Shown here: positions 341 to 58,074 of the stretch, one piece after another
How positions within the stretch are numbered: position 1 is the first letter of the stretch
Layout: each line of letters starts with the position of its first letter
Position numbers and translations under genes: made by a program
Notes under the pieces: model-generated
What the model saw: the letters and a program-made list of their open reading frames with translations, nothing else
What the model was told of the DNA's origin: nothing
The model's database searches: none
From: Spirochaetia bacterium
GTDB lineage: Bacteria > Spirochaetota > Spirochaetia > SZUA-6 > Bin103
Assembly (NCBI GenBank): GCA_965203515.1
Contig: OZ241907.1
Span: forward strand, 1,714,578 to 1,778,577
DNA length: 64,000 nucleotides
Direction of reading: 5' to 3'

Positions 341-1633
341 ATGAATGCACTACTTCCCTACGTCCGCGAACTCGAACGTGAGCTGAGCGCGCCGAGTCGC
401 TCCGGTGCGCAATGGGAATCATGGCGCGACCGCTGTCTGGACGGTGGACCGGCCCGCGAACTGCGAGCAGCCGTTCAGCGGGCGGACCTGAGGGAGCAGG
501 GCGCGTTCTTTACCGGCCCCGAACTTGGCAGGAGAGCAGCGCTCGCGTTCGGCCCGCCGATTGCTGACGACTCGGTGTACTTTGATCCGTCCTGCGGGAC
601 AGGAGACCTGCTGCTCGCCGCGGCCGGACGGCTGCCCCGAGCGCCGACGGTTGCCGGGACACTTGCGCTCTGGGGAAGCCGCTTGGCGGGCTGCGATCTT
701 TCTCCGGTGTTCGTCCGGGCGGCCAGTGCGCGCCTTGCCCTGCTGGCGATGCGCCGTTGCGGCACCCGCGAGCGGGTCGCGCCGGAAGCGGCAGGTGCTC
801 TGCTGCCGGCGTTAACGGTCGACGATGCGTTGCGCTGTCCCGACCGGTACGCGGCGGCGGGCCGGATCATGATGAACCCGCCGTTCCGTGCCATCCGTGC
901 GCCGGACGGCTGCGAGTGGTCGGCCGGCCGCATCAACGCGGCCGCTCTCTTCACGGAGACCGCCATTCTCAACTCCCGGGACGGAACACGGATCACCGCC
1001 ATTCTTCCCGATGTCCTACGCTCGGGAAGTCGCTACCATCGGTGGCGCTGCATGATCGGCGGCAATGCGGTCGTAGAAGAGATTACCGCATACGGAGCGT
1101 TTGATCGCCACGCCAACGTCGACGTATTCCTGTTGCGCCTGACCGTCGCCAAGGGCAGGGAGGTCCCGACCGCCGAGGAGTGGGCGGGTATCGACAGGGT
1201 TTGCAGTGACACCGTGGCGGGGCACTTCACGGTCCGCGTCGGCGCCGTCGTGCCCCATCGGCACGGGGAAACCGGGCCGGAATACCCGTACCTGCATGCG
1301 CGCTCGTTGCCGCCTTGGCAAACGGTTACGAAGATAACTAAAACGCGGCGCTTCGCCGGCACGGTCTTCGCGCCGCCATTCGTCGCGGTGAGACGTACGT
1401 CCGGCCCCCGGGATCGACACCGGGCGGTGGCTACGATCGTGCTCGGCCGGCGGGCGGTGGCGGTCGAGAATCACGTCATCGTGTGCCTGCCCGACGACGG
1501 CACGATCGAGCGGTGTCGGGCTCTGCTGGCTCGTCTGCGCAGCGGCAATACCGATGGCTGGCTCAACCGGCGCATCCGCTGTCGTCACCTGACGACCTCG
1601 GCAGTGGCCGAGATACCGTGGTGGGAGCCATGA
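341..1633 (+). CDS. N6-adenine DNA methyltransferase-like protein (gamma-class: motif X FFTGP, motif I DPSCGTGDLL, motif IV MMNPPF; C-terminal TRD-like region)
   Basis: Track ORF 2..1633. Its first 113 aa overlap ppc on the opposite strand, so the start is set at ATG 341 (MNALLPYVRELE...). Motif order X-I-IV is typical of Eco57I/TaqI-like N6A MTases. The stop TGA 1631-1633 overlaps the next start (ATGA). Confidence 0.6.
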   Translation: MNALLPYVRELERELSAPSRSGAQWESWRDRCLDGGPARELRAAVQRADLREQGAFFTGPELGRRAALAFGPPIADDSVYFDPSCGTGDLLLAAAGRLPRAPTVAGTLALWGSRLAGCDLSPVFVRAASARLALLAMRRCGTRERVAPEAAGALLPALTVDDALRCPDRYAAAGRIMMNPPFRAIRAPDGCEWSAGRINAAALFTETAILNSRDGTRITAILPDVLRSGSRYHRWRCMIGGNAVVEEITAYGAFDRHANVDVFLLRLTVAKGREVPTAEEWAGIDRVCSDTVAGHFTVRVGAVVPHRHGETGPEYPYLHARSLPPWQTVTKITKTRRFAGTVFAPPFVAVRRTSGPRDRHRAVATIVLGRRAVAVENHVIVCLPDDGTIERCRALLARLRSGNTDGWLNRRIRCRHLTTSAVAEIPWWEP

Positions 1634-3696
1634 GCACGGCGCGCATACGGTTTTCCGCCGACATCCTGCGCCGACTGGGCGAGGAATTGAATCCCCATCT
1701 GGACAAGGGGATCGTGGAGCTGGTCAAGAACTCCTACGACGCGGACGCGACCTGGTGCCGCATCGAGATGAGCGGAACAGGCGGCGCCGGCGGCACCATC
1801 ATCGTTACCGACAACGGCGACGGCATGACGCCGGCCGAGATCGAACGGGGGTGGCTGGTGCTCGGCAGATCCACCAAGAATGCGGCGCGACGTACGCGGC
1901 TGGGGCGCATCCCGGCCGGCAGCAAAGGTTTGGGGCGGCTGGCGGCCCTACGTATGGGATCGCACGCGCTGCTGAGCACCAGACCGCGGAAGCAGCCTGC
2001 GGACGAGTATCGGCTACCGATCGACTGGCGTGCGTTCGATGCCACGGATCTGGTCGATGACGTAGCGCTGAATATCGACCATGCCCCGAGGTCACCGGAC
2101 TCCGGCCCGGGAACCGAGATCAGGATCAAAGGACTGCGCAAGCGGATACAGCGCATGGAGGTCAAGCGTCTAGCGCGCGAGTTGATCCTGCTTGCTGATC
2201 CGTTCGGCGACGATCCTGCCGGGTTCGCGCCCACGCTGATCGCACCCGACTTCAATGACTTGGCCGGGCTGGTGAGGAATCGATACTTCGATGATGCCGA
2301 GTACCATCTGGCCGCCGGCGTCGACGAGACCGGCCGCGCAACCGCGGCGGTGGTCGACTGGAAGGGCCAGCTCCTGTTCAGCGCCGGCCATGACGAAATC
2401 GCCGCGGCTGACGAACGCCGGCCCTACCACTGTCCCGCGGTCCGTTTCGATCTTTGGGTCTTCATTCTGAATCGCGCCACCTTTTCCACGAGAATCAGCA
2501 CCCTGAAAGAAGTCCGTCAATGGTTGGGTGAGTTCGGCGGCGTGCACGTCTATCACAATGGGCTGCGGGTGATGCCGTACGGCAACCCCGGCAACGACTG
2601 GTTGGAGATGAACCTGCAGCGCGTGCGTAGCCCAGAAGAACGTCCGGGAACGAATACCTCCATCGGCCGCATCGTGGTGACCGATACCGATGCGCGGCTC
2701 GTCCAGAAGACCGACCGCTCCGGGTACGTCGAGGACGAAGCGTTTACCGATCTGGTGCGATTCGCCCAGGAGGCCATGGAGTGGATGGCCGACCGGCGGC
2801 TGGAGACAGCGGAGCGGCGCCGCGCCACGGCGCGCGGCATCGCCTCGAACAGGTCACGCGAGGCGCAACGAGCGTTGCGAACGGCCATCGACCAAGTTCC
2901 GCTTTCAGATCGCGAGCCCCTGGAGGCCGCATTCAAGCAGTATGATCGTTCACGAGACCAGGAGGCGGATACCTTGCGCAAGGAGGTGCAGTTGTATCGG
3001 ACGTTGAGTACGGCGGGCATCACCGCAGCGACCTTTGCGCACGAGTCGAGCGGCAATCCGATCAAGGTGATAAGGCAGTCGGTCGACGCGCTCGCGCGCC
3101 GCGCCGGTGAGATGCTAGGCGACCGGTACGAGCCTCTGTTGAGCCGACCGGTGACCGGTATTCAACGAGCCGTCCGCAGCCTTGCCGTTCTGGGAAACGC
3201 CACGCTGAAGCTGCTCGACCACGACAAACGCCGGTTATCGAGAGTCGATCTGCATGACGTCGTACGTGAGGTCGTAGACACGTTCAGACCATTCCTCAAT
3301 GGAAGAAACGTGGCGACCACCGTGTGCCTGTGTTCAGGTGATCCCTACGTCCGCGGCAGTCGGGCAGCGATCGAATCGATCGTCACCAACCTGCTCAACA
3401 ACAGCCTCACCGCGTTCGAAAACGCCGGCACGATGGAACGAAGGATCGAGCTTACCACCTCGATCGAAGATGGTCGTTGGCGGCTGGCGGTGTCCGACAA
3501 CGGTCCGGGGATCACCGACATTAGTACGCGCGACATCTGGCTGCCCGGCCGCACTACGCGCAAGAACGGCACCGGACTGGGACTGACGATCGTCCGGGAT
3601 GCGGTCCGGGACCTCGACGGCGACGTCGATGCCCATGAGCACGGTGGCCTGGGCGGCGCCGAAATCATCGTAGAGATACCGATTCTGGGAGGCTGA
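1630..3696 (+). CDS. dual GHKL-ATPase protein: N-terminal MORC/Hsp90-like Bergerat ATPase + candidate H-box + C-terminal histidine-kinase HATPase_c
   Basis: ATG 1630 overlaps the upstream stop (ATGA). N-terminal domain motifs: ELVKNSYDADAT (N-box), VTDNGDGMT (G1), GSKGLGRLAA (G2). Mid region: ATFAHESSGNP (H-box-like). C-terminal domain motifs: IVTNLLNNSLTAF (N-box), VSDNGPGI (G1), GTGLGLTIV (G2). No TM segments. Confidence 0.6.
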   Translation: MSTARIRFSADILRRLGEELNPHLDKGIVELVKNSYDADATWCRIEMSGTGGAGGTIIVTDNGDGMTPAEIERGWLVLGRSTKNAARRTRLGRIPAGSKGLGRLAALRMGSHALLSTRPRKQPADEYRLPIDWRAFDATDLVDDVALNIDHAPRSPDSGPGTEIRIKGLRKRIQRMEVKRLARELILLADPFGDDPAGFAPTLIAPDFNDLAGLVRNRYFDDAEYHLAAGVDETGRATAAVVDWKGQLLFSAGHDEIAAADERRPYHCPAVRFDLWVFILNRATFSTRISTLKEVRQWLGEFGGVHVYHNGLRVMPYGNPGNDWLEMNLQRVRSPEERPGTNTSIGRIVVTDTDARLVQKTDRSGYVEDEAFTDLVRFAQEAMEWMADRRLETAERRRATARGIASNRSREAQRALRTAIDQVPLSDREPLEAAFKQYDRSRDQEADTLRKEVQLYRTLSTAGITAATFAHESSGNPIKVIRQSVDALARRAGEMLGDRYEPLLSRPVTGIQRAVRSLAVLGNATLKLLDHDKRRLSRVDLHDVVREVVDTFRPFLNGRNVATTVCLCSGDPYVRGSRAAIESIVTNLLNNSLTAFENAGTMERRIELTTSIEDGRWRLAVSDNGPGITDISTRDIWLPGRTTRKNGTGLGLTIVRDAVRDLDGDVDAHEHGGLGGAEIIVEIPILGG

Positions 3697-4353
3697 GTGA
3701 CCAACGGCAGCAGTACGATTGAACGGGTGCTTATCGTCGATGACGACGAAACGGCAAGGGAGGGATTCGGGTATCCGATTGAAGAACTGGGAATCACTCC
3801 CGTGCCGGAGACCGGGCCGATAGAAAACCTGCGTCGGTTCGTTGAGGGAGTGCCAGACCGGGCGCAGGCGGTGCTGTGTGATTATCGACTGAAGACGTCC
3901 GCCTATTCTTCATACAACGGGGATGAGGTGGTCGCCGCCTGCTATCGGCGCGGCATTCCGGGTCTGCTGTGCACGCAGTACACCGACGTGATCGTCGAAA
4001 TAAATCGGCGGCTGCGTCGGTTCATTCCGTCTCTCCTCAAGACGAGCTCGCCAACTCCTGAGGCCATTCACGCCTCACTACGCGCCTGCCAGGACGAACT
4101 CTCCGGTTCGATTCATCCTGCCCGGCGGCCGTGGCGCACTCTGGTCCGGGTGCATGACGCACCGGCGGATGCGGGCTACTGTCACGTTGTCGTACCCGCC
4201 TGGAATGCTGACCAAGCGATTCGACTGTATTTACACGACATTCCCGAAGAGATATTGCCGTGCATGACGGCAGGGTCGCGCGTGCATGCCAAGGTCAACA
4301 TCGGTGCCGGTAGTTTCGAAGAGGTGTACTTCGATGAGTGGGAGCCGGAATGA
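3697..4353 (+). CDS. receiver (REC) domain protein with ~100-aa uncharacterised C-terminal domain
   Basis: GTG 3697 abuts the upstream stop at 3696. RVLIVDDDETAREGF acidic pocket, AVLCDYRL candidate phospho-Asp, GLLCTQYTD, LLKTSS. Stop 4351-4353 overlaps the next ATG 4350 (ATGA). Confidence 0.55.
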   Translation: MTNGSSTIERVLIVDDDETAREGFGYPIEELGITPVPETGPIENLRRFVEGVPDRAQAVLCDYRLKTSAYSSYNGDEVVAACYRRGIPGLLCTQYTDVIVEINRRLRRFIPSLLKTSSPTPEAIHASLRACQDELSGSIHPARRPWRTLVRVHDAPADAGYCHVVVPAWNADQAIRLYLHDIPEEILPCMTAGSRVHAKVNIGAGSFEEVYFDEWEPE

Positions 4354-5417
4354 GAGATTGCGCCGGGCGCCTGCGTGAGACGCTGGCCGTACTGGACGTC
4401 GGACACGGCTCCAGTGCCGTCCTCTTTTCCGGGGGCGACGTGGCGGTCTTCGATACGGGACCCGGCTCCGGCCTGCTCGAGTTTCTCAAAGAGCAGAACG
4501 TCAAGCATATCAAGACCGTCTTCGTTTCGCATGCGGACCGCGATCACATCGGCGGCCTGGTCGGTCTGCTGGCCGCGAATATCATCACAGTCGAGCGGGT
4601 CGTCCTCAATACCGACAGCTCGAAAGGCTCCGCCGCGTGGGATGACCTGCTCTACGAGCTCGATGCTCGGCATCGGGCCGGAACGACCAGGTTCGACACC
4701 ACGATCCGCGCAGGTGACAGCGAAGTCTTCGGGACGGTGACCGCGGCCGCGGCCGGCCCGAGTACGTATCTTACGGCAAGAGGACCCGGCAGTACAGACC
4801 GGTCCGGCAGGAGAATCACCAGTAACTCGATCAGTGCCGTGATCCGGCTCGCCGCCGACACCGGTCCGGTAGCACTCCTGACCGGTGACCTCGACATGAT
4901 CGGGCTCGATGCACTGCTGCACGAGGGAGGCGCCATAGATGCGCCGGTACTGGTGTTTCCTCATCATGGCGGAGGAGTAGGCGGCAGCAATGTCGGTGGT
5001 TACGTCACCAAGCTGGTCAAGCGCGTGCGCCCGTGTGTCGTGGTGTTCTCCATCGGTCGCCGGCGGAAGGGAACGCCCGATCCTGAGATAGTCCGTTACC
5101 TTCGGGGGGCGGCGCCGGCGGCACGCATTGTGTGCACGCAGTTGTCGCAGCACTGCGCGAAGGCGCGTCCGACGTTCGCACCGGCGCACTTGTCACCGGC
5201 GTTCGCGCTCGGTCGAAGTGACGGCGCCTGCTGTGGCGGCACGATTCTGATGCCGTTGCGTGATGCGCCCGGGATCACGCCGGACTCCGCCAATCACCTG
5301 GAATTCATCAGGAAAGCGGCTGAAACACCGTTGTGCATGGGATGGCCGATCCCCGCCGTAGAACGGCCGCTCAGGCCAAGTGCCGGGAGAAGAACCGGAC
5401 CCAGTTGCGGTGCATGA
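4350..5417 (+). CDS. MBL-fold metallo-hydrolase (ComEC/Rec2-like beta-lactamase fold), Cys-rich C-terminus
   Basis: VLDVGHGSSAVL...VFVSHADRDHIGGL (HxHxDH-like), PVLVFPHHGG. ATGA coupling to the upstream gene. C-terminal CTQLSQHCAK...GACCGG cysteine cluster. Confidence 0.6.
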   Translation: MRDCAGRLRETLAVLDVGHGSSAVLFSGGDVAVFDTGPGSGLLEFLKEQNVKHIKTVFVSHADRDHIGGLVGLLAANIITVERVVLNTDSSKGSAAWDDLLYELDARHRAGTTRFDTTIRAGDSEVFGTVTAAAAGPSTYLTARGPGSTDRSGRRITSNSISAVIRLAADTGPVALLTGDLDMIGLDALLHEGGAIDAPVLVFPHHGGGVGGSNVGGYVTKLVKRVRPCVVVFSIGRRRKGTPDPEIVRYLRGAAPAARIVCTQLSQHCAKARPTFAPAHLSPAFALGRSDGACCGGTILMPLRDAPGITPDSANHLEFIRKAAETPLCMGWPIPAVERPLRPSAGRRTGPSCGA

Positions 5418-9878: not shown

Positions 9879-10931
9879 ATGGCATTCGAGTCACGAGTCT
9901 ACGCCCTGCGTATCGAGCCGCACCCCAACGCCGACCGCCTGGAGCTGGCGGCGATCGGCGGCTTCCGTTGCGTCGTCGGCAAGGACAGCTACGTCGACGG
10001 CGACCTGGCCGCGTACATCCCGGAAGGGGCGGTCTGTCCCGAATGGCTGATCGCGGAGCTGGGGCTGGAAGGCAAGCTGGCCGGCAGCAAGAAGAACCGC
10101 GTCAAGGCGGTGCAGCTCCGCGGCGCGCTTTCGCAGGGGTTGGTCTATCCGGTCCGCGACGGGATGATCCGCGGGCGGCAGGTCGCCGAAGGGGACGAAG
10201 TCACCGAGCTGCTGGAGCTGGTCAAGTACGAACCGCCGATCCCGATCTCCATGCAGGGCGAGGTGCGGTCCGCGCACGGCGCCACCCTCCACTACGACAT
10301 CGAGGACTTCAAGAAATACCCGGAGGAGTTCCGGGACGGGGACCCGGTGATGGTCACGGAGAAGCTGCACGGCACGTGGTGCTGCCTGGGCTGGCACGCC
10401 GACCACGGCCCGATCGTCACCTCCAAGGGTATGTCGGACAAGGGCATGGCGCTGCTGATCGACGACGCGAACAAGACCAATCTGTACGTGCGCACGTGGC
10501 GCGCGCATCAGGAGGCGTTCGAGTCGGCGCGCGCCCGCCTTGCCGGCGACGGCCGGCCGTTCTACGTCCTGGGCGAGGTGTACGGCCGCGGCGTGCAGGA
10601 CCTCCATTACGGGGAGCCCAACCCGGCGTTCCGGGTGTTCGATGCGTACCTGGGCGAACCGGGAACCGGCCGCTACCTGAACCCGGAGGAACTGGCGGAA
10701 TCGCTGAGCGATCTGTTTCCGCTGGTGCCGGAGCTCTATCGCGGCCCGTTCAGCCTGGCGAAGCTGCAGGAGCTCACCGACGGCGCCACCACGCTCGGCG
10801 GCGGCCACGTACGCGAAGGCGTGGTCGTGAGGCCGGCCATGGAGCGCGTGTCGCACGCCTGCGGACGGGTGATCCTGAAGAGCGTCTCCGGCAAGTACCT
10901 GACGCGCAAGGGCGGCACGGAGTTCAACTGA
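9879..10931 (+). CDS. RNA ligase family protein (Rnl2/PF09414-like nucleotidyltransferase, motif I KLHGT) with N-terminal tRNA-binding-like OB domain
   Basis: EKLHGTWC matches the KxHG adenylylation motif (T4 Rnl2 KIHGTN). The N-terminus MAFESRVYALRIEPHPNADRLELAAIGGFRCVVG resembles the CsaA/EMAP-type OB fold seen in DraRnl-like ligases. Confidence 0.5.
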   Translation: MAFESRVYALRIEPHPNADRLELAAIGGFRCVVGKDSYVDGDLAAYIPEGAVCPEWLIAELGLEGKLAGSKKNRVKAVQLRGALSQGLVYPVRDGMIRGRQVAEGDEVTELLELVKYEPPIPISMQGEVRSAHGATLHYDIEDFKKYPEEFRDGDPVMVTEKLHGTWCCLGWHADHGPIVTSKGMSDKGMALLIDDANKTNLYVRTWRAHQEAFESARARLAGDGRPFYVLGEVYGRGVQDLHYGEPNPAFRVFDAYLGEPGTGRYLNPEELAESLSDLFPLVPELYRGPFSLAKLQELTDGATTLGGGHVREGVVVRPAMERVSHACGRVILKSVSGKYLTRKGGTEFN

Positions 10932-10955: not shown

Positions 10956-12104
10956 TTACGACGCCTCGCCGGCGAGGCGCCGGATCAGGTCCGGGAGGCT
11001 GACGAAGCGGACGCTGAAACCCGGAAAGTCACGCACCCAGGAGCGTTCCGTGTCCGCAGTCACGACGTAGTTGGCGCCGGTGGGATAGCGGGCGCGGAAG
11101 GCGCGCAGGTTCCGGGGATCGAATCCGCCGGCGCGCCACTTGCACTCCACGGTCACCGGGGGCGCGGCGCGATCGTCGATCACGAAGTCGATCTCATGGC
11201 CGCGCTTGTCGCGCCAGTAGCAAAGCCGACGCCGTTGCAGGCGTCCGAGGTATTCGTTGAGCACGCAGTGCTCCCACAGGGAGCCGCGATCCTCGTCGCG
11301 CAGCCGGTTCCAGCCCATGAACAGGCTGACGAAGCCGGTATCGAAGCCGTAGACCTTGGGCGTCGCCACGATCTCCGTCGCGCGGCGCGTGCTGAAGGGC
11401 CGAACGATCTGCACGACGTGGGTATCTTCGAGCACCTGCAGATAGTTGACGATGGTGGCGCGGCTCACCTCGCACGAGGCGGCGTACCTGGTCGCCTCGA
11501 ACAACCCGCCGCTGGCGGCGAACAACAACTCCACGAAGCGCAGGAAGGACCAGCGCCGTTGCAGCCGGAAGTGCTCCTGGATGTCCCGCGCCCAGTAGGA
11601 GTCGATCCAGTCCTGAAACCCGCGCTCCGGAAACTCGGAAGCAAGGAAGAAGGGGGGCAGCCCGCCGTGCAGAAAGCGGTGATCGATGCCGCGCGGGCCG
11701 AACTCGTGCTCGTCCTGGAGCAGCATCGGCGTCATCCACAGATCGCGCTTGCGGTCGGTGAGCGTATCCCGAAATCGGCGCGACGCTCCCAGTGACGAGG
11801 AGCCGGTAGCGACGATCTGCGTATCGGGATGGTAATCCGCCGCGATCTTCAGCAGCTCGGACGGATTGGGCAGACGGTGTATCTCGTCCAGCACGACCCG
11901 CCGCGCACCGACGTCACGCAGGAAGCTCTCAGGGGACTCCAGCGCGCGGCGGGTGCTCGGCAGTTCGCAGTCGAGGTACTCGACGTCCGGCAGAGACTGA
12001 CACAGGACCGTCTTGCCGGCGCGGCGGACCCCCGACAGCCAGACGACCGACTTCTCGCGCCACAGCTTCTCTACGGCCGCGATCCAGTAGCTTCTCCGTA
12101 CCAT
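10956..12104 (-). CDS. AAA+ ATPase with DUF4143 (AAA_14 family), paralog 1
   Basis: GVRRAGKT Walker A, VVLDEIHRLPN Walker B. Paralogous to the gene at 42406..43734. Confidence 0.7.
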   Translation of the reverse strand: MVRRSYWIAAVEKLWREKSVVWLSGVRRAGKTVLCQSLPDVEYLDCELPSTRRALESPESFLRDVGARRVVLDEIHRLPNPSELLKIAADYHPDTQIVATGSSSLGASRRFRDTLTDRKRDLWMTPMLLQDEHEFGPRGIDHRFLHGGLPPFFLASEFPERGFQDWIDSYWARDIQEHFRLQRRWSFLRFVELLFAASGGLFEATRYAASCEVSRATIVNYLQVLEDTHVVQIVRPFSTRRATEIVATPKVYGFDTGFVSLFMGWNRLRDEDRGSLWEHCVLNEYLGRLQRRRLCYWRDKRGHEIDFVIDDRAAPPVTVECKWRAGGFDPRNLRAFRARYPTGANYVVTADTERSWVRDFPGFSVRFVSLPDLIRRLAGEAS

Positions 12105-51953: not shown

Positions 51954-53021
51954 TCACCGTGCCGGCCCGCCGCTGATCACGTTCGCCTTCCAAAGTTGGC
52001 CCAGAGAGTACTCCTTTAGCCAGTCCTGCAGGCGATCCGGGTCCAGCCGCTCGAAGGCCGACTCGCCATCCCGGCGATCGACCACCACGATGTCTTCCGG
52101 CCGAAACTCGCTGACCAGGTCGGCGGATTGCGTGGAGACGATCACCTGCCGCGCTTCACTCGCCGACTGCAGCATCTCCGCCAGCAGCGTAAGCGCGAAC
52201 GGATGCAGCCCCAGTTCCGGCTCATCGATCAGAATCAGCCGCGGCTGCATCGCGGTCGGCTGCAGAAGCAGGGTGGCAAGGCACAGGAAGCGGAGCGTGC
52301 CGTCCGAAAGCTGAAGCGGTCCCAGCGGCGTATCGGCATCGTCGACGTGGTGCCATTCGAGCTCCATGCGCTCATCGACATCCCTGCGATAGACGAAGCC
52401 GCCGAAGAACGGCGCGGCCAGCCGCACGGCGTCGACGATCTCGCGGTGCTCGTGCGGATGGCGTTCATGGAGCAAGCGCAGGAATGGCCCCAGGTTGGCC
52501 CCGTCCGGCTTCAACCGCAGGTTGTCGCGCACCGCCTGCGGGCAGCGCATGCCCGCAACCTCACTGGTATCGTGAAAGTGATACACCCGCCAGTCCCGCA
52601 TCGCCGGCAGCACGTAAGCCGCAAAGTCGCCGCCCTCGATACTCGCCGCCTGCGCTTCCAGGTGGCCCGACCAAGTCGATCTTTCCGGAAAAACGTGCTC
52701 TCGCGCGAACGCCATTCCGTCCGCCACCGGCTCAAGCGAAAAGCCGTATCGGCGGCTGTTGCCGTTGAAGGACAACTCCACGTCCAGACCCGAAGTCCGC
52801 CGGCGACCGCCGAACAGCAGAGCGTCCGCTCTCCCCTCCCGCTTGACGAACAGTTGGAGTCTCTTCGCGGCAAGTTCGGACACCATCCGAAACAGACTCA
52901 TCAAGTTGCTCTTGCCCGCTCCGTTCGCTCCGACGAGGACATTCAGTCCGCGCAACTCGAAGTCCTCCAGCACCCGAATCGACTTGAAGCCGCGAACGGA
53001 CAGTCGGTCTATCGCAGCCAT
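51954..53021 (-). CDS. AAA_21/ABC-type ATPase (OLD/Abi-like NTPase domain only)
   Basis: [13 protein letters not shown] Walker [14 protein letters not shown] Walker B/D-loop. Internal ATG ([14 protein letters not shown]) chosen. Confidence 0.6.
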
Positions 53022-53207
53022 GTCGTGTCTCTCGCTTCGAGAAGCTGGGCGTCCCATACGCGAATGACGACCTTCGTCGCCGCGACCGTCTCGTGCATCA
53101 TCCTCATTCGCGCCACAGGTACCGACTCAGACTTCGGCGCCGAAGTCCCGCCCCGCCCACAGTCCGACTCTGCCCTCTCCCGCTGCCGGTCATCGCCGCT
53201 AGCGACT

Positions 53208-54323
53208 TCAGTTTCCAGCCTCGACGGAAATGATGCATGCGTTACGTAAGGAAAGACGTTGACGGTGTTGCTCTAGATCGCCTCTCATAACGACCGTTGA
53301 TCTCTGCCTATGGGCCTCCGTCAGTCGCTCGTAATCAGTTCTCTTGGCGTAAACCTTGACCGATTTCCATTGTCCGTCAATAGGCGCCCGCATGGTGACC
53401 ACACCGTCGCTCTCCCATTCCTCGCGATGCAGACGGTGTATCGGTCCGGTCAGAGATATGTCGGGGTGAGGCTCGCGCTCGCGAAACGACCGCGCTGCTT
53501 CCCGCAGGATCGGAGCGTCGGGGTTAGAGAATTCAACGATCTTTCCAGCCGACTTCATCGGCCGTGTACGAGCCCAGGTCATGTCTACATCAAGCGTCGG
53601 AAACGGACTGATCATCCTGTATAGCGCTTCGCACAGGTTCGCGCTAACCCCCTTGTCGACGACTCTCGCAAAGGCTTCTCCGTCACCTGCAACCGTGCTC
53701 TCCGTAGCGCTCCGGGCAGCGTCGAGAGCCTCGATCAGACGTGTTGTCATCCGTCGTTCGATGGGGGCGTCGAATTCCTCAGAGTCTCCGAACAAGGTCG
53801 GAATCGGTGGAGGTATCGAGATCACTAGTGCGACAACGAAACTTCCCTGTTCGGTCTGTCCCAGACGAACTCGGCTCAGAAGGTCGGCCGCCTCCTTGTT
53901 GGCGCCCGCGCGGTACAGTGCCTGCGGCTCACGCAACGAGCAGGCCGCCGCCAAGAGCATGTCACGCGCGCCATCGATGAGGTCGACGCCGTCGTTCACT
54001 GTCAGGCTGCCGTCATCGCTTCCGCCGGCTCTTACCCGCACGACATCACGGTTGGCGTTCACCAAATCGCGGTAGAGGGCGAGTTCGTCGCGTTCGGTTA
54101 CTCTCGTGAATATCTCGATCAGTTGGGCTACGACACTTGCGTAGTCACCTAAACGTTGCGTGCGTGGCAGGATGATCTCAGGCAGCCCCTCTGCGGCATA
54201 AACGTCGGAATGGGCGCCGTATCTCTCATTCGTCTTGGACCAACCCGCAGCCCGCGCGTAAGCCGAAAGCGCATCCGGCGAAATCGCCCGCAAAGCGTCG
54301 CGATCTCGAATATTCACCTTCAT
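53208..54323 (-). CDS. hypothetical protein (lower-GC, within R-M island)
   Basis: Track ORF. ATGA overlap with the upstream DUF4365 gene. Confidence 0.4.
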   Translation of the reverse strand: MKVNIRDRDALRAISPDALSAYARAAGWSKTNERYGAHSDVYAAEGLPEIILPRTQRLGDYASVVAQLIEIFTRVTERDELALYRDLVNANRDVVRVRAGGSDDGSLTVNDGVDLIDGARDMLLAAACSLREPQALYRAGANKEAADLLSRVRLGQTEQGSFVVALVISIPPPIPTLFGDSEEFDAPIERRMTTRLIEALDAARSATESTVAGDGEAFARVVDKGVSANLCEALYRMISPFPTLDVDMTWARTRPMKSAGKIVEFSNPDAPILREAARSFREREPHPDISLTGPIHRLHREEWESDGVVTMRAPIDGQWKSVKVYAKRTDYERLTEAHRQRSTVVMRGDLEQHRQRLSLRNACIISVEAGN

Positions 54324-54850
54324 CGGACGTTCCCTCCTCTCGATCGATCCATGATCAGACGCAAATTTTTGACGTCAAACACGTTCTCATTCGGAATCCG
54401 CACCGTGACAGAAGATCGGTTGTCGGTCTCATCCGCTCCCACCAAGCTCAGCCAGTAGGCACACCGCCTCAGAGCCAACTCGTCGGTCGTAACTTTAATC
54501 CATTGGTCCTCATCTCTGGGTAGATCGAGCACTACGAGCACGCGTGGTGTCTGGGTCTGAATGCGGAGCAGGTCGTAGTTGCGCCGTTTCAACTCAAAGC
54601 GGTAGTGACCATCGCCCACCGGATTCAGATTGACGGTCGCCTTCAACTGCAAGTCGATGGCCGGCCTCATCCGTCCGCCCGAATGAATTCGGAGATCGAC
54701 ACCGTCACGGTCGAAGTCGCAGTCTGCTGTCACGTACCCCGCACCCGCCGCCACGGCGCGCGCGTACACACGGGACAGCGCTTCTTCCCGATCCGCGGGC
54801 GTAAGCAAAGCATCCTTCACACGGCCTCTATATTCCACTGTCATCCACAC
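54320..54850 (-). CDS. DUF4365-like protein
   Basis: Size and context. Lower GC than surroundings. Confidence 0.4.
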   Translation of the reverse strand: MWMTVEYRGRVKDALLTPADREEALSRVYARAVAAGAGYVTADCDFDRDGVDLRIHSGGRMRPAIDLQLKATVNLNPVGDGHYRFELKRRNYDLLRIQTQTPRVLVVLDLPRDEDQWIKVTTDELALRRCAYWLSLVGADETDNRSSVTVRIPNENVFDVKNLRLIMDRSRGGNVR

Positions 54851-56490
54851 AGCTCCCCGGAAATCAGTTTCGGCAAGAGCGCGTCGAGCTGCGCCATCAG
54901 ATTACGGGATGCATTCTGGTTTGCCAGAATACCCTCCATGTACGGAGACACCAAGTCATCGAACATGCCCGCTACTTTCGTCGGAGGGATAATCGTCGTT
55001 GCGACTGTGAACGTGTCACGTGTTATCGTGTCGAAAATCGTACCATGGGTTCGGGTGGTAAGCTCCTTGATCGACATTCGCAGGTTCCAATAGGTGAATA
55101 GATCCGGGTACCCGTCACGTCCACGAATTCCATAACACGTCTGGTTCATTGCCATCGGGACCCCTAAGCATGCTAATTTGCCTACGGTACCTCGCGCCGT
55201 AATGATTGTCGTCCGAGCAGGAAGGATCCGAGTGGAACTATTGGCGACGCCCAGCGGTGATATGGTACGCTCGGTGTCGATAGCGAAAACGCCGTTGAAC
55301 GAAGGATCGTCCTTTGCGGTATACCAGGGAATATCACCATCCCAGTATTCCGGCACGGACGTTCGGGGAGTGCCTCCGTTGATGATCTCAACGATATTCG
55401 CCAAGGCTCCAATCTCCCAACCGTAAGGTACGTTCGCTCCGTTGTTCGACGCCACGAAGCGGTCAGGGAACAGGTCGGCGATATCTTTGGGCAGGCCGGT
55501 GTCGCGATCTTCTTGCTTGGCCCATACCGGCTCAAAATCGACAAACCACGACATGAACAGCGCTCGTGCCGTTGCATCCAGAGTCTCGTTCATGAGGCAG
55601 TATAGCTTAATTCTTTCGTCAAGTGGTTCAAGTACGCGGACAATGGCGCGCTGTACGTCGAGGGGCGGAACCGGTATCGATATGGATCGAAGATAAGAGA
55701 TCGGCTGCGCTATCGAGGGGACGCCGACCTGGGACGTGTTCGCGAGTAACTTGTGCCGACCTTCGGGTGTCTTGAAGTAGTACGCCACGAACTGCGGGAG
55801 CACCTGACGTCGATCACAGCGCATGTAGAACTGGCTTTGAGAAATGACGTAACGATCGTAGATTGAATTCTCCGGGACATAGGCGACCTGGCCGATGGTA
55901 CCTCGATGAGTGAATACTACGTCGCCTCGTGCTACGTTCGCGTTCCGCAGCCGCTCTGCATGTTCTTCAGTGATGAAGTTGAATCCCGGTCTGTCATCGA
56001 CCATCATTCCGTGGAGATGCTGGCCGCTGATTATCGGTACGCCCGTTGGTACGAACGTGTTCACGCGAATGGATGACCCGAAAGGACCCATCGCGACCTT
56101 CTCGGCGATCTCCTCAATGCGCTTCTCTTGCCACTTCACCCGCCGAGACCGTTCCTTTTCTATAAGAGCCACGTAGTCCCTTTCAATGCGGGAATGAAAG
56201 CTCTCCGGCAAGCGTGCCCAGTCGTGCGCTTCAACCAGGAACGGAACCGTGGAATCGCGCAGTGCTTCCTCGAAATCGGCCAGCCGCGTAATGTCGATCT
56301 TGGCGAGGCCGGGGCCGCGCAGCACGAGGTCGAGGTCGCTGCCGTCGTGGCTCTCGCCGTTCACGCGGCTGCCGTAGGCCCACACTTCCACCTCGGGCAG
56401 GTGCTCCTGCAGCAGCGCTTCGAGCATGGCGCGATGGCGAGCCGACAGATGCAGCGTGCCGGCGGGCCGCTCACCCGGTGCGTCAGGCAT
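54841..56490 (-). CDS. hsdS: in-frame fusion of minimal nucleotidyltransferase (MNT antitoxin-like) domain and type I R-M specificity subunit
   Basis: ATG 56488-56490. AYGSRVNGESHDGSDLDLVL (MNT GSx9-11DxD), then with no intervening stop KVAMGPFGSS...two TRDs...KLISGELCG (HsdS). Track ORF 54841..56721. Confidence 0.55.
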   Translation of the reverse strand: MPDAPGERPAGTLHLSARHRAMLEALLQEHLPEVEVWAYGSRVNGESHDGSDLDLVLRGPGLAKIDITRLADFEEALRDSTVPFLVEAHDWARLPESFHSRIERDYVALIEKERSRRVKWQEKRIEEIAEKVAMGPFGSSIRVNTFVPTGVPIISGQHLHGMMVDDRPGFNFITEEHAERLRNANVARGDVVFTHRGTIGQVAYVPENSIYDRYVISQSQFYMRCDRRQVLPQFVAYYFKTPEGRHKLLANTSQVGVPSIAQPISYLRSISIPVPPLDVQRAIVRVLEPLDERIKLYCLMNETLDATARALFMSWFVDFEPVWAKQEDRDTGLPKDIADLFPDRFVASNNGANVPYGWEIGALANIVEIINGGTPRTSVPEYWDGDIPWYTAKDDPSFNGVFAIDTERTISPLGVANSSTRILPARTTIITARGTVGKLACLGVPMAMNQTCYGIRGRDGYPDLFTYWNLRMSIKELTTRTHGTIFDTITRDTFTVATTIIPPTKVAGMFDDLVSPYMEGILANQNASRNLMAQLDALLPKLISGELCG

Positions 56491-56932
56491 CGCCCGTCCC
56501 GTCGATGACGGCAGCCAACCTCTTGGCGTCGGCGATGAAGGCCGGGAGCAGCTTGAGGGTCGCCTCGGCGAAGCCTTCACCGTAGTCGTGGGCAGTGTCG
56601 TTACGGTTGTCGCGGTACTCCAGCCAGCGCTCGCAGGCGTCCGCCGGCAGCAGGCAGTGCTTGGCGGCGTGGCGGAACACGTCCTTGAACACGAGGCGGT
56701 CGGCCTGCCGGTTGCTGGCAAACCAGGGGCGCAGGCGCTTCTTCAGCAGCTTGCCGCTCTGTTCCAGCACCAACTCGAACTCCTTGACGCAGGCAGCGCG
56801 GTAGATGTCGCGGAGTACGTCGTCGCCGGCAGCCTGGTCGCGGAGTCTGTCGAGCGCCTGCTCCAGGGTCCTGATGCAACGCTTCAGATAGGTGGTGTCT
56901 ATCGCCCTCTGTTCCATTGGGTCCTGGCTCAA
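56483..56932 (-). CDS. hepT: HepT-like HEPN toxin (nucleotidyltransferase substrate-binding protein family)
   Basis: RNDTAHDY (Rx4HxY HEPN motif). Immediately upstream of the MNT domain. Confidence 0.65.
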   Translation of the reverse strand: MSQDPMEQRAIDTTYLKRCIRTLEQALDRLRDQAAGDDVLRDIYRAACVKEFELVLEQSGKLLKKRLRPWFASNRQADRLVFKDVFRHAAKHCLLPADACERWLEYRDNRNDTAHDYGEGFAEATLKLLPAFIADAKRLAAVIDGTGDA

Positions 56933-57480: not shown

Positions 57481-58074
57481 TCACGGGGAGAAATGTCTGA
57501 GGACACGTACCGCTTGGCTCAAAGTTCCGCCATGAGAGCGCAGCCACTGAGGAACATCGTTTGGGTCAACTGTTAGCCATGCCGTATCTCTACCAGCGCG
57601 ACCGCCGTGCTGTGACTGGATTTCACCCGAACGCCACTTCTCCATCATTATCGACTTTGGGACAATCCAGCAGTGGGCGTTGAATGGTGCTATTCCGAGC
57701 CAGATTCCGATGTGGTAATTCTGGTCACGAAGTTGCTGAAACTTGTACGAACCAGCCTTCCACAGTGTGGAAAATTTGATCTCTACGCGGACGCCGCCAA
57801 TGATCCTGTCAGCTTCGCTATCCGGGGACTTGGCTACGTCGAAGTTCTTTGCGGCGAAGAAACCCGCGACCAGTTGCTCGCCGATCTTTCCTATCTGGCG
57901 AGACGGCCGTGACTTGATCCAGGCGAAGGGACTCCCGGCCCATGACATATCCCCATCTTCATAATCAGCATACAGCGAAGTGGCGATCCCCGTAAGCATC
58001 CTTACGTCCGGATCGGCAATGTTGTAGCTATTGTCCATGAGTTTCCTGAAACAGCGTGGGCTGAGCATCATCAT
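57481..58074 (-). CDS. hypothetical protein, candidate restriction endonuclease partner of the adjacent MTase
   Basis: Markedly lower GC. Co-oriented and overlapping the MTase 3' end. No recognisable motifs. Confidence 0.3.
   Translation of the reverse strand: MMMLSPRCFRKLMDNSYNIADPDVRMLTGIATSLYADYEDGDMSWAGSPFAWIKSRPSRQIGKIGEQLVAGFFAAKNFDVAKSPDSEADRIIGGVRVEIKFSTLWKAGSYKFQQLRDQNYHIGIWLGIAPFNAHCWIVPKSIMMEKWRSGEIQSQHGGRAGRDTAWLTVDPNDVPQWLRSHGGTLSQAVRVLRHFSP

What the first reader, a model, noticed from the sequence alone, without database searches (positions are those of the whole stretch)
1630..3696. Single polypeptide with two GHKL (Bergerat) ATPase domains: MORC/Hsp90-like N-terminal domain plus canonical histidine-kinase catalytic domain
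Both domains carry complete N-box/G1/G2 motif sets. N-terminal: ELVKNSYDADAT, DNGDGM, GSKGLGRLAA. C-terminal: NLLNNSLTAF, DNGPGI, GTGLGLTIV. A candidate phospho-His motif (FAHESSGNP) sits between them. There are no TM helices or standard sensor domains, so the N-terminal GHKL module may be the sensing or regulatory element. MORC-type GHKL ATPases are recurrent in prokaryotic conflict systems. Fusion to a histidine-kinase core is unusual.
Basis: partly seen in the sequence, partly recalled or inferred. Interest (0 to 1): 0.55.

Follow-up and report, generated by a model that had tools for sequence, protein, structure and literature searches.

The report
Double-ATPase sensor kinase defence cassette
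The gene really does encode a soluble histidine kinase whose "sensor" is a second, MORC-like ATPase. This design is already published and widespread, and here it sits in a four-gene, horizontally acquired cassette that is a nuclease-swapped relative of the recently validated anti-phage system Ambrosia.

Summary
Both ATP-site motif sets are invariant in 78 homologs down to 25% identity.

The fusion is not unusual. The architecture was described in 2021 (HATPase_c_3 + HEF_HK + HATPase_c, R-M-linked, paraMORC-derived). The N-terminal half alone finds 461 clusters (50% identity) at E<=1e-30.

The gene is the second of four translationally coupled genes: N6-adenine methyltransferase, kinase, REC protein with an unknown beta-domain, and a ComEC-type MBL hydrolase. 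The methyltransferase and kinase are homologs of AbrA (37% identity, E 5e-70) and AbrB (28%, E 3e-34). These belong to Ambrosia, an anti-phage system validated in Pseudomonas aeruginosa in a 2025 preprint. AbrC, the HNH nuclease AbrD and the XRE regulator AbrR have no counterparts here; a different REC protein and the MBL take their place.

The kinase-REC-MBL trio is conserved across at least nine phyla. Seventeen loci, mostly cyanobacterial, carry no methyltransferase. GC3 is 0.66-0.77 against 0.925 in the neighbouring genes, which indicates horizontal acquisition.

Verdict: a new variant of a known kind, of moderate interest.

The parts
341..1633 (+). N6-adenine DNA methyltransferase, gamma class, AbrA homolog (430 aa). 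Motif I is FDPSCGTGDLL and motif IV is NPPF.
   Evidence: The gene call is identical on L084 and the exact product is in the collection. BLASTP to Ambrosia AbrA gives 37% identity over 361 aa, E 5e-70. Homologs carry a weak precomputed N6_Mtase hit. The nearest solved relative is the BpuSI methyltransferase domain, E 0.003. Pfam itself gives no significant hit.
1630..3696 (+). Dual-GHKL soluble histidine kinase, AbrB homolog (688 aa): the finding itself.
1630..2199 (+). N-terminal MORC/Hsp90-type GHKL ATPase domain (residues ~1-190). It contains the catalytic E30, N-box N34, D61xGxG, and G97xKGxGR.
   Evidence: Pfam HATPase_c_3, E 5e-20. NCBIfam BbrUII/HgiDII restriction-enzyme N-terminus, E 9e-17. 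These residues are (near-)invariant across 78 homologs. N34 corresponds to AbrB N40, which is required for defence.
2212..2724 (+). Middle alpha/beta 'transducer-like' domain (residues ~195-365). D323-W324 and R363 are invariant.
   Evidence: AF2 secondary structure. Foldseek alignments of 440-487 columns to MORC2, SMCHD1, HtpG and TRAP1 span the GHKL domain plus this domain.
2737..3003 (+). Two long helices (residues 370-458): a coiled-coil linker between the ATPase head and the DHp.
   Evidence: AF2 model helices H370-421 and H425-458. The best kinase matches are coiled-coil-linked sensor kinases such as YF1 (4gcz).
3010..3213 (+). DHp (H-box) helical hairpin, residues 461-528. The phospho-acceptor H471 (nt 3040-3042) is followed by E472.
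   Evidence: H471 is invariant and E472 is 78-92% conserved. The region aligns to kinase DHp domains. PF19191 HEF_HK gives no hit.
3235..3693 (+). Histidine-kinase catalytic (CA) GHKL domain, residues 536-688. It contains N587/N591, D623xGxG and G647xGxG.
   Evidence: Pfam HATPase_c, E 8e-21. PDB histidine kinases.
3697..4353 (+). Receiver (REC) protein (218 aa). The REC fold spans residues ~10-135, with D15, D16, D62 and T93. A five-stranded beta-domain of unknown family spans residues ~143-218.
4350..5417 (+). ComEC-type metallo-beta-lactamase-fold hydrolase (355 aa), the presumed nuclease effector. It carries a C-terminal Cys/His cluster.
   Evidence: Pfam Lactamase_B, E 4e-11. NCBIfam ComEC/Rec2. 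The closest solved relatives are ComEC MBL domains 9ic4 and 30bt, E 7e-11 and 6e-9. Conserved in 32 orthologs: D16, G18, G20, H61xD63xD65-H66, D180, H205, H206, C262, C269, C295, H316, C329.

Best explanation
The gene encodes the sensor kinase of a four-gene, horizontally transferred anti-phage cassette. The cassette is a variant of the Ambrosia system.

Proposed working:
1. The protein is a dimer held together by its DHp. Its MORC/Hsp90-like N-terminal ATPase head acts as the input module.
2. ATP-dependent closure of the head is triggered or stabilised by an infection cue, most likely DNA or a nucleoprotein state.
3. The signal travels through the ~90-residue coiled coil to the DHp/CA transmitter.
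4. H471 is autophosphorylated and the phosphoryl group passes to D62 of the adjacent REC protein.
5. The REC protein's private beta-domain then switches on the ComEC-type MBL hydrolase encoded by the overlapping next gene, which degrades nucleic acid.
6. The AbrA-like N6-adenine methyltransferase is an accessory partner, not an obligatory self-protection device.

Shown here: the domain anatomy, conservation of all catalytic residues, the cassette and its conservation, homology to AbrA and AbrB, and foreign codon usage.

Shown by others, on a homolog: defence activity, and the requirement for the N-terminal GHKL Asn and the REC Asp.

Inferred: the nature of the cue, the coupling through the coiled coil, direct REC-to-MBL activation, and the substrate of the MBL.
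For: 1. Architecture: two GHKL sites, a DHp His and a coiled-coil linker, all (near-)invariant over 78 homologs.
2. Operon: MTase/kinase and REC/MBL overlap as ATGA, and the kinase stop abuts the REC start. No internal promoter or terminator signal exceeds chance.
3. Conservation of the cassette: kinase -> REC -> MBL occurs in the same order in all 32 intact loci with >=40% kinase identity, from Acidobacteriota, Gemmatimonadota, Latescibacterota, Planctomycetota, Actinomycetes, Bacteroidota, Chloroflexota, Cyanobacteria and Proteobacteria. It is also found on plasmids.
4. Homology to a validated defence system: the MTase is 37% identical to AbrA (E 5e-70). The kinase N-terminal half is 28% identical to AbrB (E 3e-34). 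AbrB is 747 aa with HATPase_c, HATPase_c_3 and HATPase_c_5. In Ambrosia every gene is needed, and AbrB N40A (= N34 here) and AbrC D60A abolish defence.
5. The REC output domain and the nuclease change together between clades: beta-domain with MBL here, helical AbrC with HNH in true Ambrosia loci, and 350-460-aa REC fusions elsewhere. The REC protein here has no HTH. This favours physical REC-effector coupling.
6. The MBL metal ligands are conserved and its nearest solved relatives are ComEC nuclease domains.
7. Mobility: GC3 is 0.66-0.77 against 0.925 in flanking genes. The cassette is a discrete insert between PEP carboxylase and a dipeptidase. Kinase identity across phyla is 55-64%. One plasmid copy has its MBL gene disrupted by an IS element.
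8. The N-terminal GHKL is the same type as that of GHKL-containing restriction enzymes and Shedu nucleases.
Against: - There is no experiment on this clade. Defence is inferred from a homolog at 28-37% identity in which two of the components are not homologous.
- The Ambrosia authors favour transcriptional control, because their reporters were induced on infection, not direct enzyme activation.
- The REC protein lacks the canonical beta5 Lys; R108-x-I110-P111 is invariant instead. Phosphotransfer chemistry or activation may therefore be atypical.
- The fold family and partner of the REC C-terminal domain are unknown. No REC-MBL co-fold could be run.
- Most loci lie among housekeeping genes rather than in obvious defence islands.
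- The substrate of the MBL is unknown. MBL folds also hydrolyse RNA, nucleotides and small molecules.
Confidence: 0.6

Rival explanations
1. Transcriptional-switch model, as proposed for Ambrosia. The dual-GHKL kinase senses infection and phosphorylates the REC protein. The REC protein then acts as a DNA-binding regulator that induces the otherwise silent methyltransferase and nuclease genes. The MBL needs no post-translational activation.
For: In Ambrosia, mNeonGreen reporters replacing abrA or abrD are barely expressed before infection and strongly induced after it. AbrC D60A abolishes defence. Small beta-barrel domains can bind nucleic acid. The REC beta-domain has invariant basic residues R143, R147 and R151.
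Against: This clade's REC protein has no HTH or wHTH by Pfam, by profile search or in a high-confidence model. It is not homologous to AbrC. There is no XRE/AbrR gene: the upstream intergenic region is 88 bp. The kinase and REC genes lie inside the operon they would have to induce. The REC output domain co-varies with the nuclease type rather than staying constant.
Confidence: 0.25
2. Conventional restriction-modification or addiction module. The methyltransferase protects host DNA and the MBL cuts unmodified DNA. The GHKL-kinase/REC pair only tunes the methylase/nuclease balance or acts as an ATP-dependent restriction subunit. The module persists mainly by post-segregational killing.
For: Gene content looks R-M-like: an MTase next to a nuclease. 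The N-terminal GHKL matches the N-terminus of BbrUII/HgiDII restriction enzymes (E 9e-17) and PADLOC REase_II models. The 2021 survey found R-M genes statistically enriched around such kinases.
Against: Seventeen loci (15 cyanobacterial, one Enterobacterales, one plasmid) carry the kinase-REC-MBL trio with no DNA methyltransferase within +-6 kb. This was checked with a tblastn panel and with the [DNS]PP[YFW] motif. In Ambrosia, AbrA methylation did not protect phage DNA. Phosphorelay residues are (near-)invariant over the whole superfamily, which argues against a vestigial relay.
Confidence: 0.1
3. Not an immune system. It is instead a cytoplasmic two-component pathway that reports on nucleotide or DNA status, for example for DNA uptake/processing or repair, using a ComEC-like hydrolase.
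For: The MBL is closest to ComEC competence nucleases. Many loci lie among housekeeping genes. The 2021 paper speculated on NTP sensing.
Against: The distribution is patchy and cross-phylum, codon usage is foreign, and copies occur on plasmids and are disrupted by an IS element. There is direct homology to two components of a validated defence system. Sister clades pair the kinase with HNH nucleases and R-M methylases. The MBL lacks the ComEC membrane channel (355 aa). Its highest hydropathy window, 1.68 at residues 67-85, lies inside the MBL fold.
Confidence: 0.05

Closest known systems
Ambrosia anti-phage system of Pseudomonas aeruginosa (AbrR-AbrA-AbrB-AbrC-AbrD; bioRxiv 10.1101/2025.09.30.679545)
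   Same: Gene order is methyltransferase -> dual-GHKL kinase -> REC protein -> nuclease. The MTase is homologous to AbrA (37% identity, E 5e-70). The kinase is homologous to AbrB (28% identity over 367 aa, E 3e-34), and AbrB carries HATPase_c_3 + HATPase_c. The N-box Asn mutated in AbrB (N40A) aligns with N34 here.
   Different: There is no XRE regulator. The REC protein is not homologous to AbrC: it has a beta-domain in place of a helical 'wHTH' C-terminus. The nuclease is a ComEC-type MBL rather than the HNH AbrD. The clade is found mainly in Acidobacteriota, Gemmatimonadota, Cyanobacteria and other environmental phyla, and often lacks the methyltransferase.
HK-like/RR-like 'TCS-like' pairs with HEF_HK (PF19191) and Response_reg_2 (PF19192) (Bellieny-Rabelo et al. 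2021, PMC8011034)
   Same: The architecture is identical: HATPase_c_3 + DHp + HATPase_c. The protein is soluble, has an adjacent divergent receiver protein and an upstream methyltransferase, and a paraMORC origin was proposed. A near-threshold PF19191 member (the L047 kinase) is a full-length homolog at 25% identity.
   Different: The window proteins do not hit PF19191 or PF19192. The partners described in 2021 were mostly C5 methylases, HNH_2 and Vsr. I found no mention of the MBL or the REC beta-domain in the Results and Discussion sections I read.
GHKL-nuclease fusions: BbrUII/HgiDII-family restriction enzymes and GHKL-Shedu (VcSduA, paraMORC3)
   Same: They have the same type of N-terminal GHKL ATPase (NCBIfam NF050001, E 9e-17 over residues 11-184; PADLOC REase_II). 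In VcSduA the catalytic Glu of the GHKL and the nuclease are both required for defence (PMC12137116).
   Different: In those proteins the GHKL is fused directly to the nuclease. Here a His-Asp phosphorelay (DHp/CA plus a REC protein) sits between the GHKL head and a separate nuclease.
Eukaryotic MORC2 / SMCHD1 and Hsp90-family ATPase modules
   Same: The fold-level matches to residues ~1-480 with the longest alignments (433-487 columns) are these GHKL+transducer modules (Foldseek E 4e-11 to 4e-10). The catalytic Glu, the N-box and the glycine-rich lids are conserved.
   Different: Sequence identity is 12-15%. There are no CW, chromo or other chromatin-reader domains. The C-terminus is a histidine-kinase transmitter.
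Detocs (defensive two-component system)
   Same: It is a cytoplasmic kinase plus REC proteins used for phage defence with an enzymatic effector. This comparison rests on my own knowledge of Rousset et al. 2023.
   Different: PADLOC gave no Detocs hit for any of the four proteins. Detocs has a different sensor region and a PNP effector fused to a REC domain, and it has neither a methyltransferase nor an MBL.

Membership tests
GHKL ATPase superfamily (N-terminal domain) | Bergerat-fold motifs: N-box (ExxxN), G1 (DxGxG) and G2 (GxxGxG-like lid). | tested here: met
   E30/N34, D61-G63-G65 and G97-K99-G100-G102 are present. Pfam HATPase_c_3, E 5e-20. The residues are 98-100% conserved in 78 homologs.
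MORC / paraMORC-type GHKL | The GHKL is followed by a transducer (S5-like) domain that completes the ATPase module. | tested here: inconclusive
   Foldseek aligns 440-487 columns to the MORC2, SMCHD1, HtpG and TRAP1 modules. R363 and D323-W324 in the middle domain are invariant. I could not isolate the domain to confirm an S5 topology, and TM-scores are modest (0.3-0.4).
MORC / paraMORC-type GHKL | Genomic association with restriction-modification or nuclease genes (Iyer et al. 2008, PMC2292703). | tested here: met
   There is an adjacent N6 methyltransferase and an MBL hydrolase. Sister clades have HNH plus Eco57I-type or C5 methylases.
Class I (HisKA-type) histidine kinase transmitter | DHp helical hairpin with a phospho-acceptor His followed by an acidic residue. 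| tested here: met
   H471 is invariant and E472 is 78-92% conserved. Helices 461-528 are seen in the model. Alignments to ZraS, HK853 and YF1 cover the DHp.
Class I (HisKA-type) histidine kinase transmitter | CA domain with N, G1 and G2 boxes. | tested here: met
   N587/N591, D623xGxG and G647xGxG are present. Pfam HATPase_c, E 8e-21. The residues are (near-)invariant.
Class I (HisKA-type) histidine kinase transmitter | Cognate receiver with an acidic pocket and a phospho-acceptor Asp. | tested here: met
Class I (HisKA-type) histidine kinase transmitter | Autophosphorylation and phosphotransfer activity. | not testable with these tools
   Biochemistry is required.
HEF_HK / Response_reg_2 TCS-like family (PMC8011034) | Architecture HATPase_c_3 + DHp + HATPase_c, soluble, with an adjacent divergent REC protein. 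| tested here: met
HEF_HK / Response_reg_2 TCS-like family (PMC8011034) | Matches to the family models PF19191 (DHp) and PF19192 (REC). | tested here: not met
   There is no hit even at E<=10 on the middle region or on the REC protein. Both models are in the library: the L047 kinase scores 23.8 bits on PF19191, and the L047 REC protein hits PF19192.
Ambrosia defence system | AbrA-type N6 methyltransferase. | tested here: met
   37% identity, E 5e-70 over 361 aa.
Ambrosia defence system | AbrB-type kinase / Hsp90-like ATPase. | tested here: met
   28% identity, E 3e-34 over the 399 N-terminal residues held in Table S1. The C-terminal half is compared only through AbrB's listed Pfam domains and length.
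Ambrosia defence system | AbrC REC protein (helical / 'wHTH' C-terminus). | tested here: not met
   tblastn finds no AbrC match in the window or its clade. Profile comparison with an AbrC-type REC protein (L041) gave only 5.9% probability over the REC N-terminus. The model shows a beta-domain.
Ambrosia defence system | AbrD HNH endonuclease. | tested here: not met
   There is no AbrD match. The fourth gene is a Lactamase_B/ComEC-type MBL.
Ambrosia defence system | AbrR XRE/HipB-like regulator. | tested here: not met
   Only 88 bp separate the divergent PEP carboxylase gene from the methyltransferase, and no gene is called there.
Ambrosia defence system | Protection against phage. | not testable with these tools
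   Needs cloning and plaque assays.
Classical type II restriction-modification system | Obligatory pairing of the nuclease with a protective methyltransferase. | tested here: not met
   Seventeen trio loci have no methyltransferase within +-6 kb.
ComEC-type MBL nucleases | MBL fold with the H-x-D-x-D-H metal motif and downstream Asp/His ligands. | tested here: met
   H61-A-D63-R-D65-H66, D180 and H205/H206 are conserved in 32 orthologs. The best solved matches are ComEC MBL domains. Nuclease activity itself was not tested.
Detocs | DtcA/DtcB/DtcC profile matches (PNP effector). | tested here: not met
   PADLOC gave no Detocs model hit for any of the four proteins.

The most novel reading that the evidence does not exclude
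The MORC-like ATPase head is a direct intracellular nucleic-acid (or nucleoprotein) sensor wired to a His-Asp phosphorelay. The phosphorylated REC protein activates a ComEC-type MBL nuclease post-translationally through its private beta-domain, with no transcription step. In cyanobacteria this would happen with no methyltransferase at all. That would make this a phosphorylation-gated nuclease immune system, mechanistically distinct from the transcriptional model currently proposed for Ambrosia, and the first histidine kinase whose input domain is an ATP-driven DNA clamp.
Probability: 0.3. Interest if true: 0.7.

Novelty: new variant of a known kind. Interest (0 to 1): 0.45.

Why it matters
Two-component phosphorelays are textbook regulators of transcription. 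Their use inside immune effector modules is only now emerging, with Detocs and Ambrosia.

This clade offers a clean natural comparison with Ambrosia. It has the same sensor kinase and methyltransferase families but a different receiver output domain and a different nuclease. It also has methyltransferase-less versions in cyanobacteria.

That comparison makes three open questions directly testable:
- What does the MORC-like ATPase head sense?
- Does the relay act on transcription or directly on the nuclease?
- What is the methyltransferase for, given that methylation does not protect phage in Ambrosia?

It also bears on how prokaryotic MORC-type ATPases, relatives of the eukaryotic chromatin silencers MORC and SMCHD1, convert ATP-dependent dimerisation into a downstream signal.

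On the practical side, current databases name these genes only 'sensor histidine kinase', 'hypothetical protein' and 'MBL fold metallo-hydrolase'. PADLOC v2 returned only weak partial hits and no specific model for these four proteins.

Tried and rejected
1. PF19191/PF19192 membership. I scanned the middle region and the REC protein at E<=10 and found no hit. The family models are narrow; only the L047 proteins came near threshold.
2. AbrC/AbrD homologs in the window clade. None were found, so I do not file the cassette as Ambrosia proper.
4. A hidden methyltransferase in cyanobacterial loci. Pfam on 58 flanking ORFs, a six-query MTase tblastn panel and a [DNS]PP[YFW] scan were all negative.
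5. Regulatory DNA. I found no sigma-70-like promoter, no terminator excess, and no meaningful repeats upstream of the methyltransferase or inside the operon. There are no tRNA or Rfam elements in the window.
6. Phage carriage. Only two distant (23-30% identity) unannotated gut 'bacteriophage sp.' fragments matched, so this is not informative.
7. C-terminal domains of the 350-460-aa REC fusions in sister clades. Pfam and PADLOC gave only REC-type hits.
8. Iyer et al. 2008 (paraMORC paper). It does not mention a receiver protein or an MBL; 'histidine kinase' appears only when spelling out GHKL. DefensePredictor 2026 lists HATPase and REC only in a figure legend.

Full report
**1. The observation.**
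window:1630-3696(+) is a 688-aa ORF. Its ATG overlaps the stop codon of the upstream gene as ATGA. A gene call with exactly this product exists on a 4.14-Mb NCBI contig.

Pfam finds HATPase_c_3 at residues 26-124 (E 5e-20) and HATPase_c at residues 579-684 (E 8e-21). NCBIfam and PDB sequence searches align residues ~436-685 with complete DHp+CA transmitters such as AtoS, ZraS, CpxA and HK853. NCBIfam also aligns residues 11-184 with the N-terminus of the BbrUII/HgiDII restriction-enzyme family (E 9e-17).

An AlphaFold2 model built on 78 homologs (pLDDT 79, pTM 0.70) shows five parts:
- a GHKL domain;
- an alpha/beta middle domain, residues ~195-365;
- two long helices, residues 370-458;
- a helical hairpin carrying H471;
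- a CA domain.

Foldseek against the PDB matches the C-terminal half to histidine kinases. It matches the N-terminal 440-487 columns to the GHKL+transducer modules of MORC2, SMCHD1, HtpG and TRAP1. No 19-residue window is hydrophobic enough for a membrane helix (maximum 0.93).

**2. Both ATP sites and the phospho-His are under selection.**
I aligned 78 full-length homologs taken from genomes, at 25-100% identity to the window protein. The following are invariant or nearly so:
- N-terminal GHKL: E30, K33, N34, D37, D61, G63, G65, M66, G97, K99, G100, G102, R103.
- Middle domain: D323, W324, R363.
- Transmitter: H471, N587, N591, D623, G627, G647, G649, G651.

E30 is the position of the general base in hydrolysing GHKL ATPases. 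This role assignment comes from established knowledge of MutL, GyrB and MORC.

**3. The fusion is common and already published.**
A search of 5.8 billion proteins returned more than 120 full-length homologs at 59-97% identity, all carrying PF13589+PF02518 and named at most 'sensor histidine kinase'. The N-terminal 440 residues alone find 461, 3,101 and 5,419 clusters (50% identity) at E<=1e-30, 1e-10 and 1e-3; among the 150 best listed, most are 680-720 aa long.

Bellieny-Rabelo et al. 2021 (PMC8011034) described exactly this architecture, HATPase_c_3 + a new DHp model HEF_HK (PF19191) + HATPase_c. They reported the following:
- It accounted for 174 of 222 sequences, and the proteins are soluble.
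- The gene sits next to a divergent receiver protein (Response_reg_2, PF19192).
- Restriction-modification genes are enriched in the neighbourhood.
- They proposed that the N-terminal GHKL acts as the sensor and that the family branched from paraMORCs.

The window proteins do not hit PF19191 or PF19192. A near-threshold PF19191 member, the L047 kinase, is a full-length homolog at 25% identity. The window protein therefore belongs to a sister clade of the published family.

**4. The cassette.**
Gene calls on an identical metagenomic contig give four genes:
- methyltransferase, 341-1633 (430 aa);
- kinase, 1630-3696;
- a 218-aa protein, 3697-4353;
- an MBL-fold protein, 4350-5417 (355 aa).

The junctions are ATGA/abutting/ATGA. 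The insert lies between a divergent PEP carboxylase gene, 88 bp upstream, and a convergent dipeptidase gene. GC3 of the four genes is 0.66-0.77 against 0.925 for the three downstream housekeeping genes.

The MBL protein keeps D16, G18, G20, H61xD63xD65H66, D180 and H205/H206, plus a C262/C269/C295/H316/C329 cluster, in 32 orthologs. Its closest solved relatives are the MBL domains of ComEC (E 7e-11 and 6e-9). The methyltransferase has gamma-class order: motif I FDPSCGTG comes before motif IV NPPF.

**5. Conservation of the cassette.**
Among the 38 genome loci whose kinase is >=40% identical, 32 are intact loci on contigs that extend far enough. All 32 have kinase -> REC homolog -> MBL homolog in the same order. 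They come from Acidobacteriota (the closest is a Vicinamibacterales MAG at 81%), Latescibacterota, Planctomycetota, Actinomycetes, Bacteroidota, Chloroflexota, Cyanobacteria and Proteobacteria. Gemmatimonadota loci retrieved separately (L001-L003, L087) show the same order. The remaining loci are cut by contig ends (L030, L033, L034) or are fragmented or decayed copies (L038-L040).

The same methyltransferase family lies immediately upstream in 21 loci, once divergently. Another N6 family takes its place in L031.

Fifteen cyanobacterial genome loci, one Enterobacterales locus and a Pseudanabaena plasmid carry the trio with no methyltransferase within +-6 kb:
- No methyltransferase family was hit by two or more of the 58 flanking ORFs scanned.
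- There were no tblastn hits with six methyltransferase queries.
- No [DNS]PP[YFW] motif occurs in any frame of >=150 aa.

Twelve plasmids carry homologs. A Hymenobacter plasmid has the full four-gene set, annotated 'N-6 DNA methylase | sensor histidine kinase | hypothetical protein | MBL fold metallo-hydrolase'. On the Pseudanabaena plasmid the MBL gene is split by an IS982 element. Flanking genes differ between genomes.

**6. Sister clades.**
Kinases at 25-30% identity are followed by one of three arrangements:
- a ~210-230-aa REC protein, an HNH endonuclease and an Eco57I-type methyltransferase, or an AbrA-type methyltransferase upstream;
- a REC protein, a 200-aa protein and a C5 methylase, in Nitrosopumilus archaea;
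- a 350-460-aa REC fusion protein.

Each kinase clade therefore has its own receiver output and its own effector.

**7. Link to a validated defence system.**
A 2025 preprint (10.1101/2025.09.30.679545) validates 'Ambrosia' in P. aeruginosa. It consists of the XRE regulator AbrR, the N6 methyltransferase AbrA, the 'sensor histidine kinase/Hsp90-like ATPase' AbrB, the REC protein AbrC and the HNH nuclease AbrD. The authors report the following:
- All genes are required for defence.
- Point mutations in each domain abolish defence, including AbrC D60A.
- Reporters are induced on infection.
- AbrA methylation does not protect phage.

They propose transcriptional control.

Table S1 of the preprint holds the sequences, with AbrA and AbrB cut at ~399 residues. 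It lists AbrB as 747 aa with HATPase_c, HATPase_c_3 and HATPase_c_5. BLASTP gives 37% identity between the window methyltransferase and AbrA (E 5e-70). It gives 28% identity between kinase residues 28-368 and AbrB residues 34-397 (E 3e-34).

The AbrB mutation N40A falls on the N-box Asn of the N-terminal GHKL, which aligns with N34 here. That is experimental evidence that the MORC-like ATP site is needed for function in this family.

AbrC and AbrD homologs are found next to the kinase in ten distant loci (L041, L043, L044, L045, L049, L053, L055, L058, L066, L069). They are absent from the window and its whole clade. A profile comparison of the window REC family with an AbrC-type protein finds only weak similarity over the REC N-terminus.

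**8. Interpretation.**
The cassette is best read as an Ambrosia-like defence module in which the output half has been exchanged. I think direct REC-to-nuclease coupling is more likely here than purely transcriptional control, for four reasons:
- The REC protein has no HTH.
- The REC output domain changes whenever the nuclease changes.
- The REC and MBL genes overlap and never separate.
- There is no XRE regulator, and the kinase and REC genes sit inside the operon they would have to induce.

This step is inference. The Ambrosia reporter data favour the rival model, which I rate at 0.25.

The methyltransferase-less trios and the Ambrosia result that methylation does not protect both argue against a classical R-M reading. 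The cue sensed by the ATPase head is unknown. DNA is the obvious candidate, by analogy with MORC2/SMCHD1/MutL-type clamps and with GHKL-nuclease fusions such as VcSduA (PMC12137116).

**9. Verdict.**
The architecture and its defence role are known. The REC beta-domain + ComEC-type MBL version, which often lacks a methyltransferase, is not described in the papers I found and is not captured by the Pfam family models or PADLOC. I rate it a new variant of a known kind, with interest 0.45.

Noticed in passing
window:51957-58930 (- strand): This is a second low-GC stretch (0.56-0.62 against ~0.70) with defence or R-M-like genes. They are an AAA_21/AbiEii-type ATPase (51957-53057), an unknown 371-aa protein (53211-54323), DUF4365 (54323-54850), a type I Methylase_S specificity domain fused to a nucleotidyltransferase domain (54844-56721), and an N6_N4 DNA methylase (58031-58930).
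   Followed up: partly
window:9879-12104: An RNA ligase with a PHA02142-type OB domain (9879-10931, +) is convergent with an AAA_14/DUF4143 ATPase (10956-12104, -). This looks like a possible small accessory or defence-like pair a few kb from the cassette.
   Followed up: no
window:3697-4353 (REC protein): The canonical receiver Lys at the end of beta5 is not conserved; R108-x-I110-P111 is invariant instead. The C-terminal beta-domain opens with an invariant R143-x-x-x-R147 and has an invariant V200-N201-x-G203-A204. It has no credible match in Pfam or PDB sequences.
   Followed up: partly
window:5133-5336 (MBL residues 262-329): A conserved C262/C269/C295/H316/C329 cluster follows the MBL fold in 32 orthologs. 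It may be a zinc- or iron-sulfur-binding module, and I saw nothing equivalent in the ComEC matches.
   Followed up: no
L091:8818-10771 (Pseudanabaena sp. ABRG5-3 plasmid); L038-L040: The MBL gene of a plasmid-borne trio is split by an IS982 transposase. Three genome loci (two Acidobacteriota, one Nostoc) show fragmented or decayed kinase, REC or MBL genes. This would be consistent with a costly effector, or with assembly errors in long-read MAGs.
   Followed up: no
L041, L043, L044, L045, L049, L053, L055, L058, L066, L069: AbrB-AbrC-AbrD homolog sets (true Ambrosia type) occur in Bacteroidota, Verrucomicrobiota, Paceibacterota (CPR), TM6, Gemmatimonadaceae and Methyloversatilis. This range is wider than the Gammaproteobacteria reported in the preprint. 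Many of these loci have an Eco57I-type methyltransferase downstream instead of AbrA upstream.
   Followed up: partly
L050:3889-8373, L052 (Nitrosopumilaceae archaea): Archaeal versions exist: a dual-GHKL kinase, a canonical REC protein (PF00072, E 4e-13), an unknown 200-aa protein and a C5 cytosine methylase.
   Followed up: no
L005:9950-12796; L001:5591-6281; L041:9487-14052: Some cassettes do sit beside other conflict genes: a type IIG Eco57I/MmeI-like R-M enzyme, an RHH/PIN toxin-antitoxin pair, and an RHS-repeat toxin.
   Followed up: no
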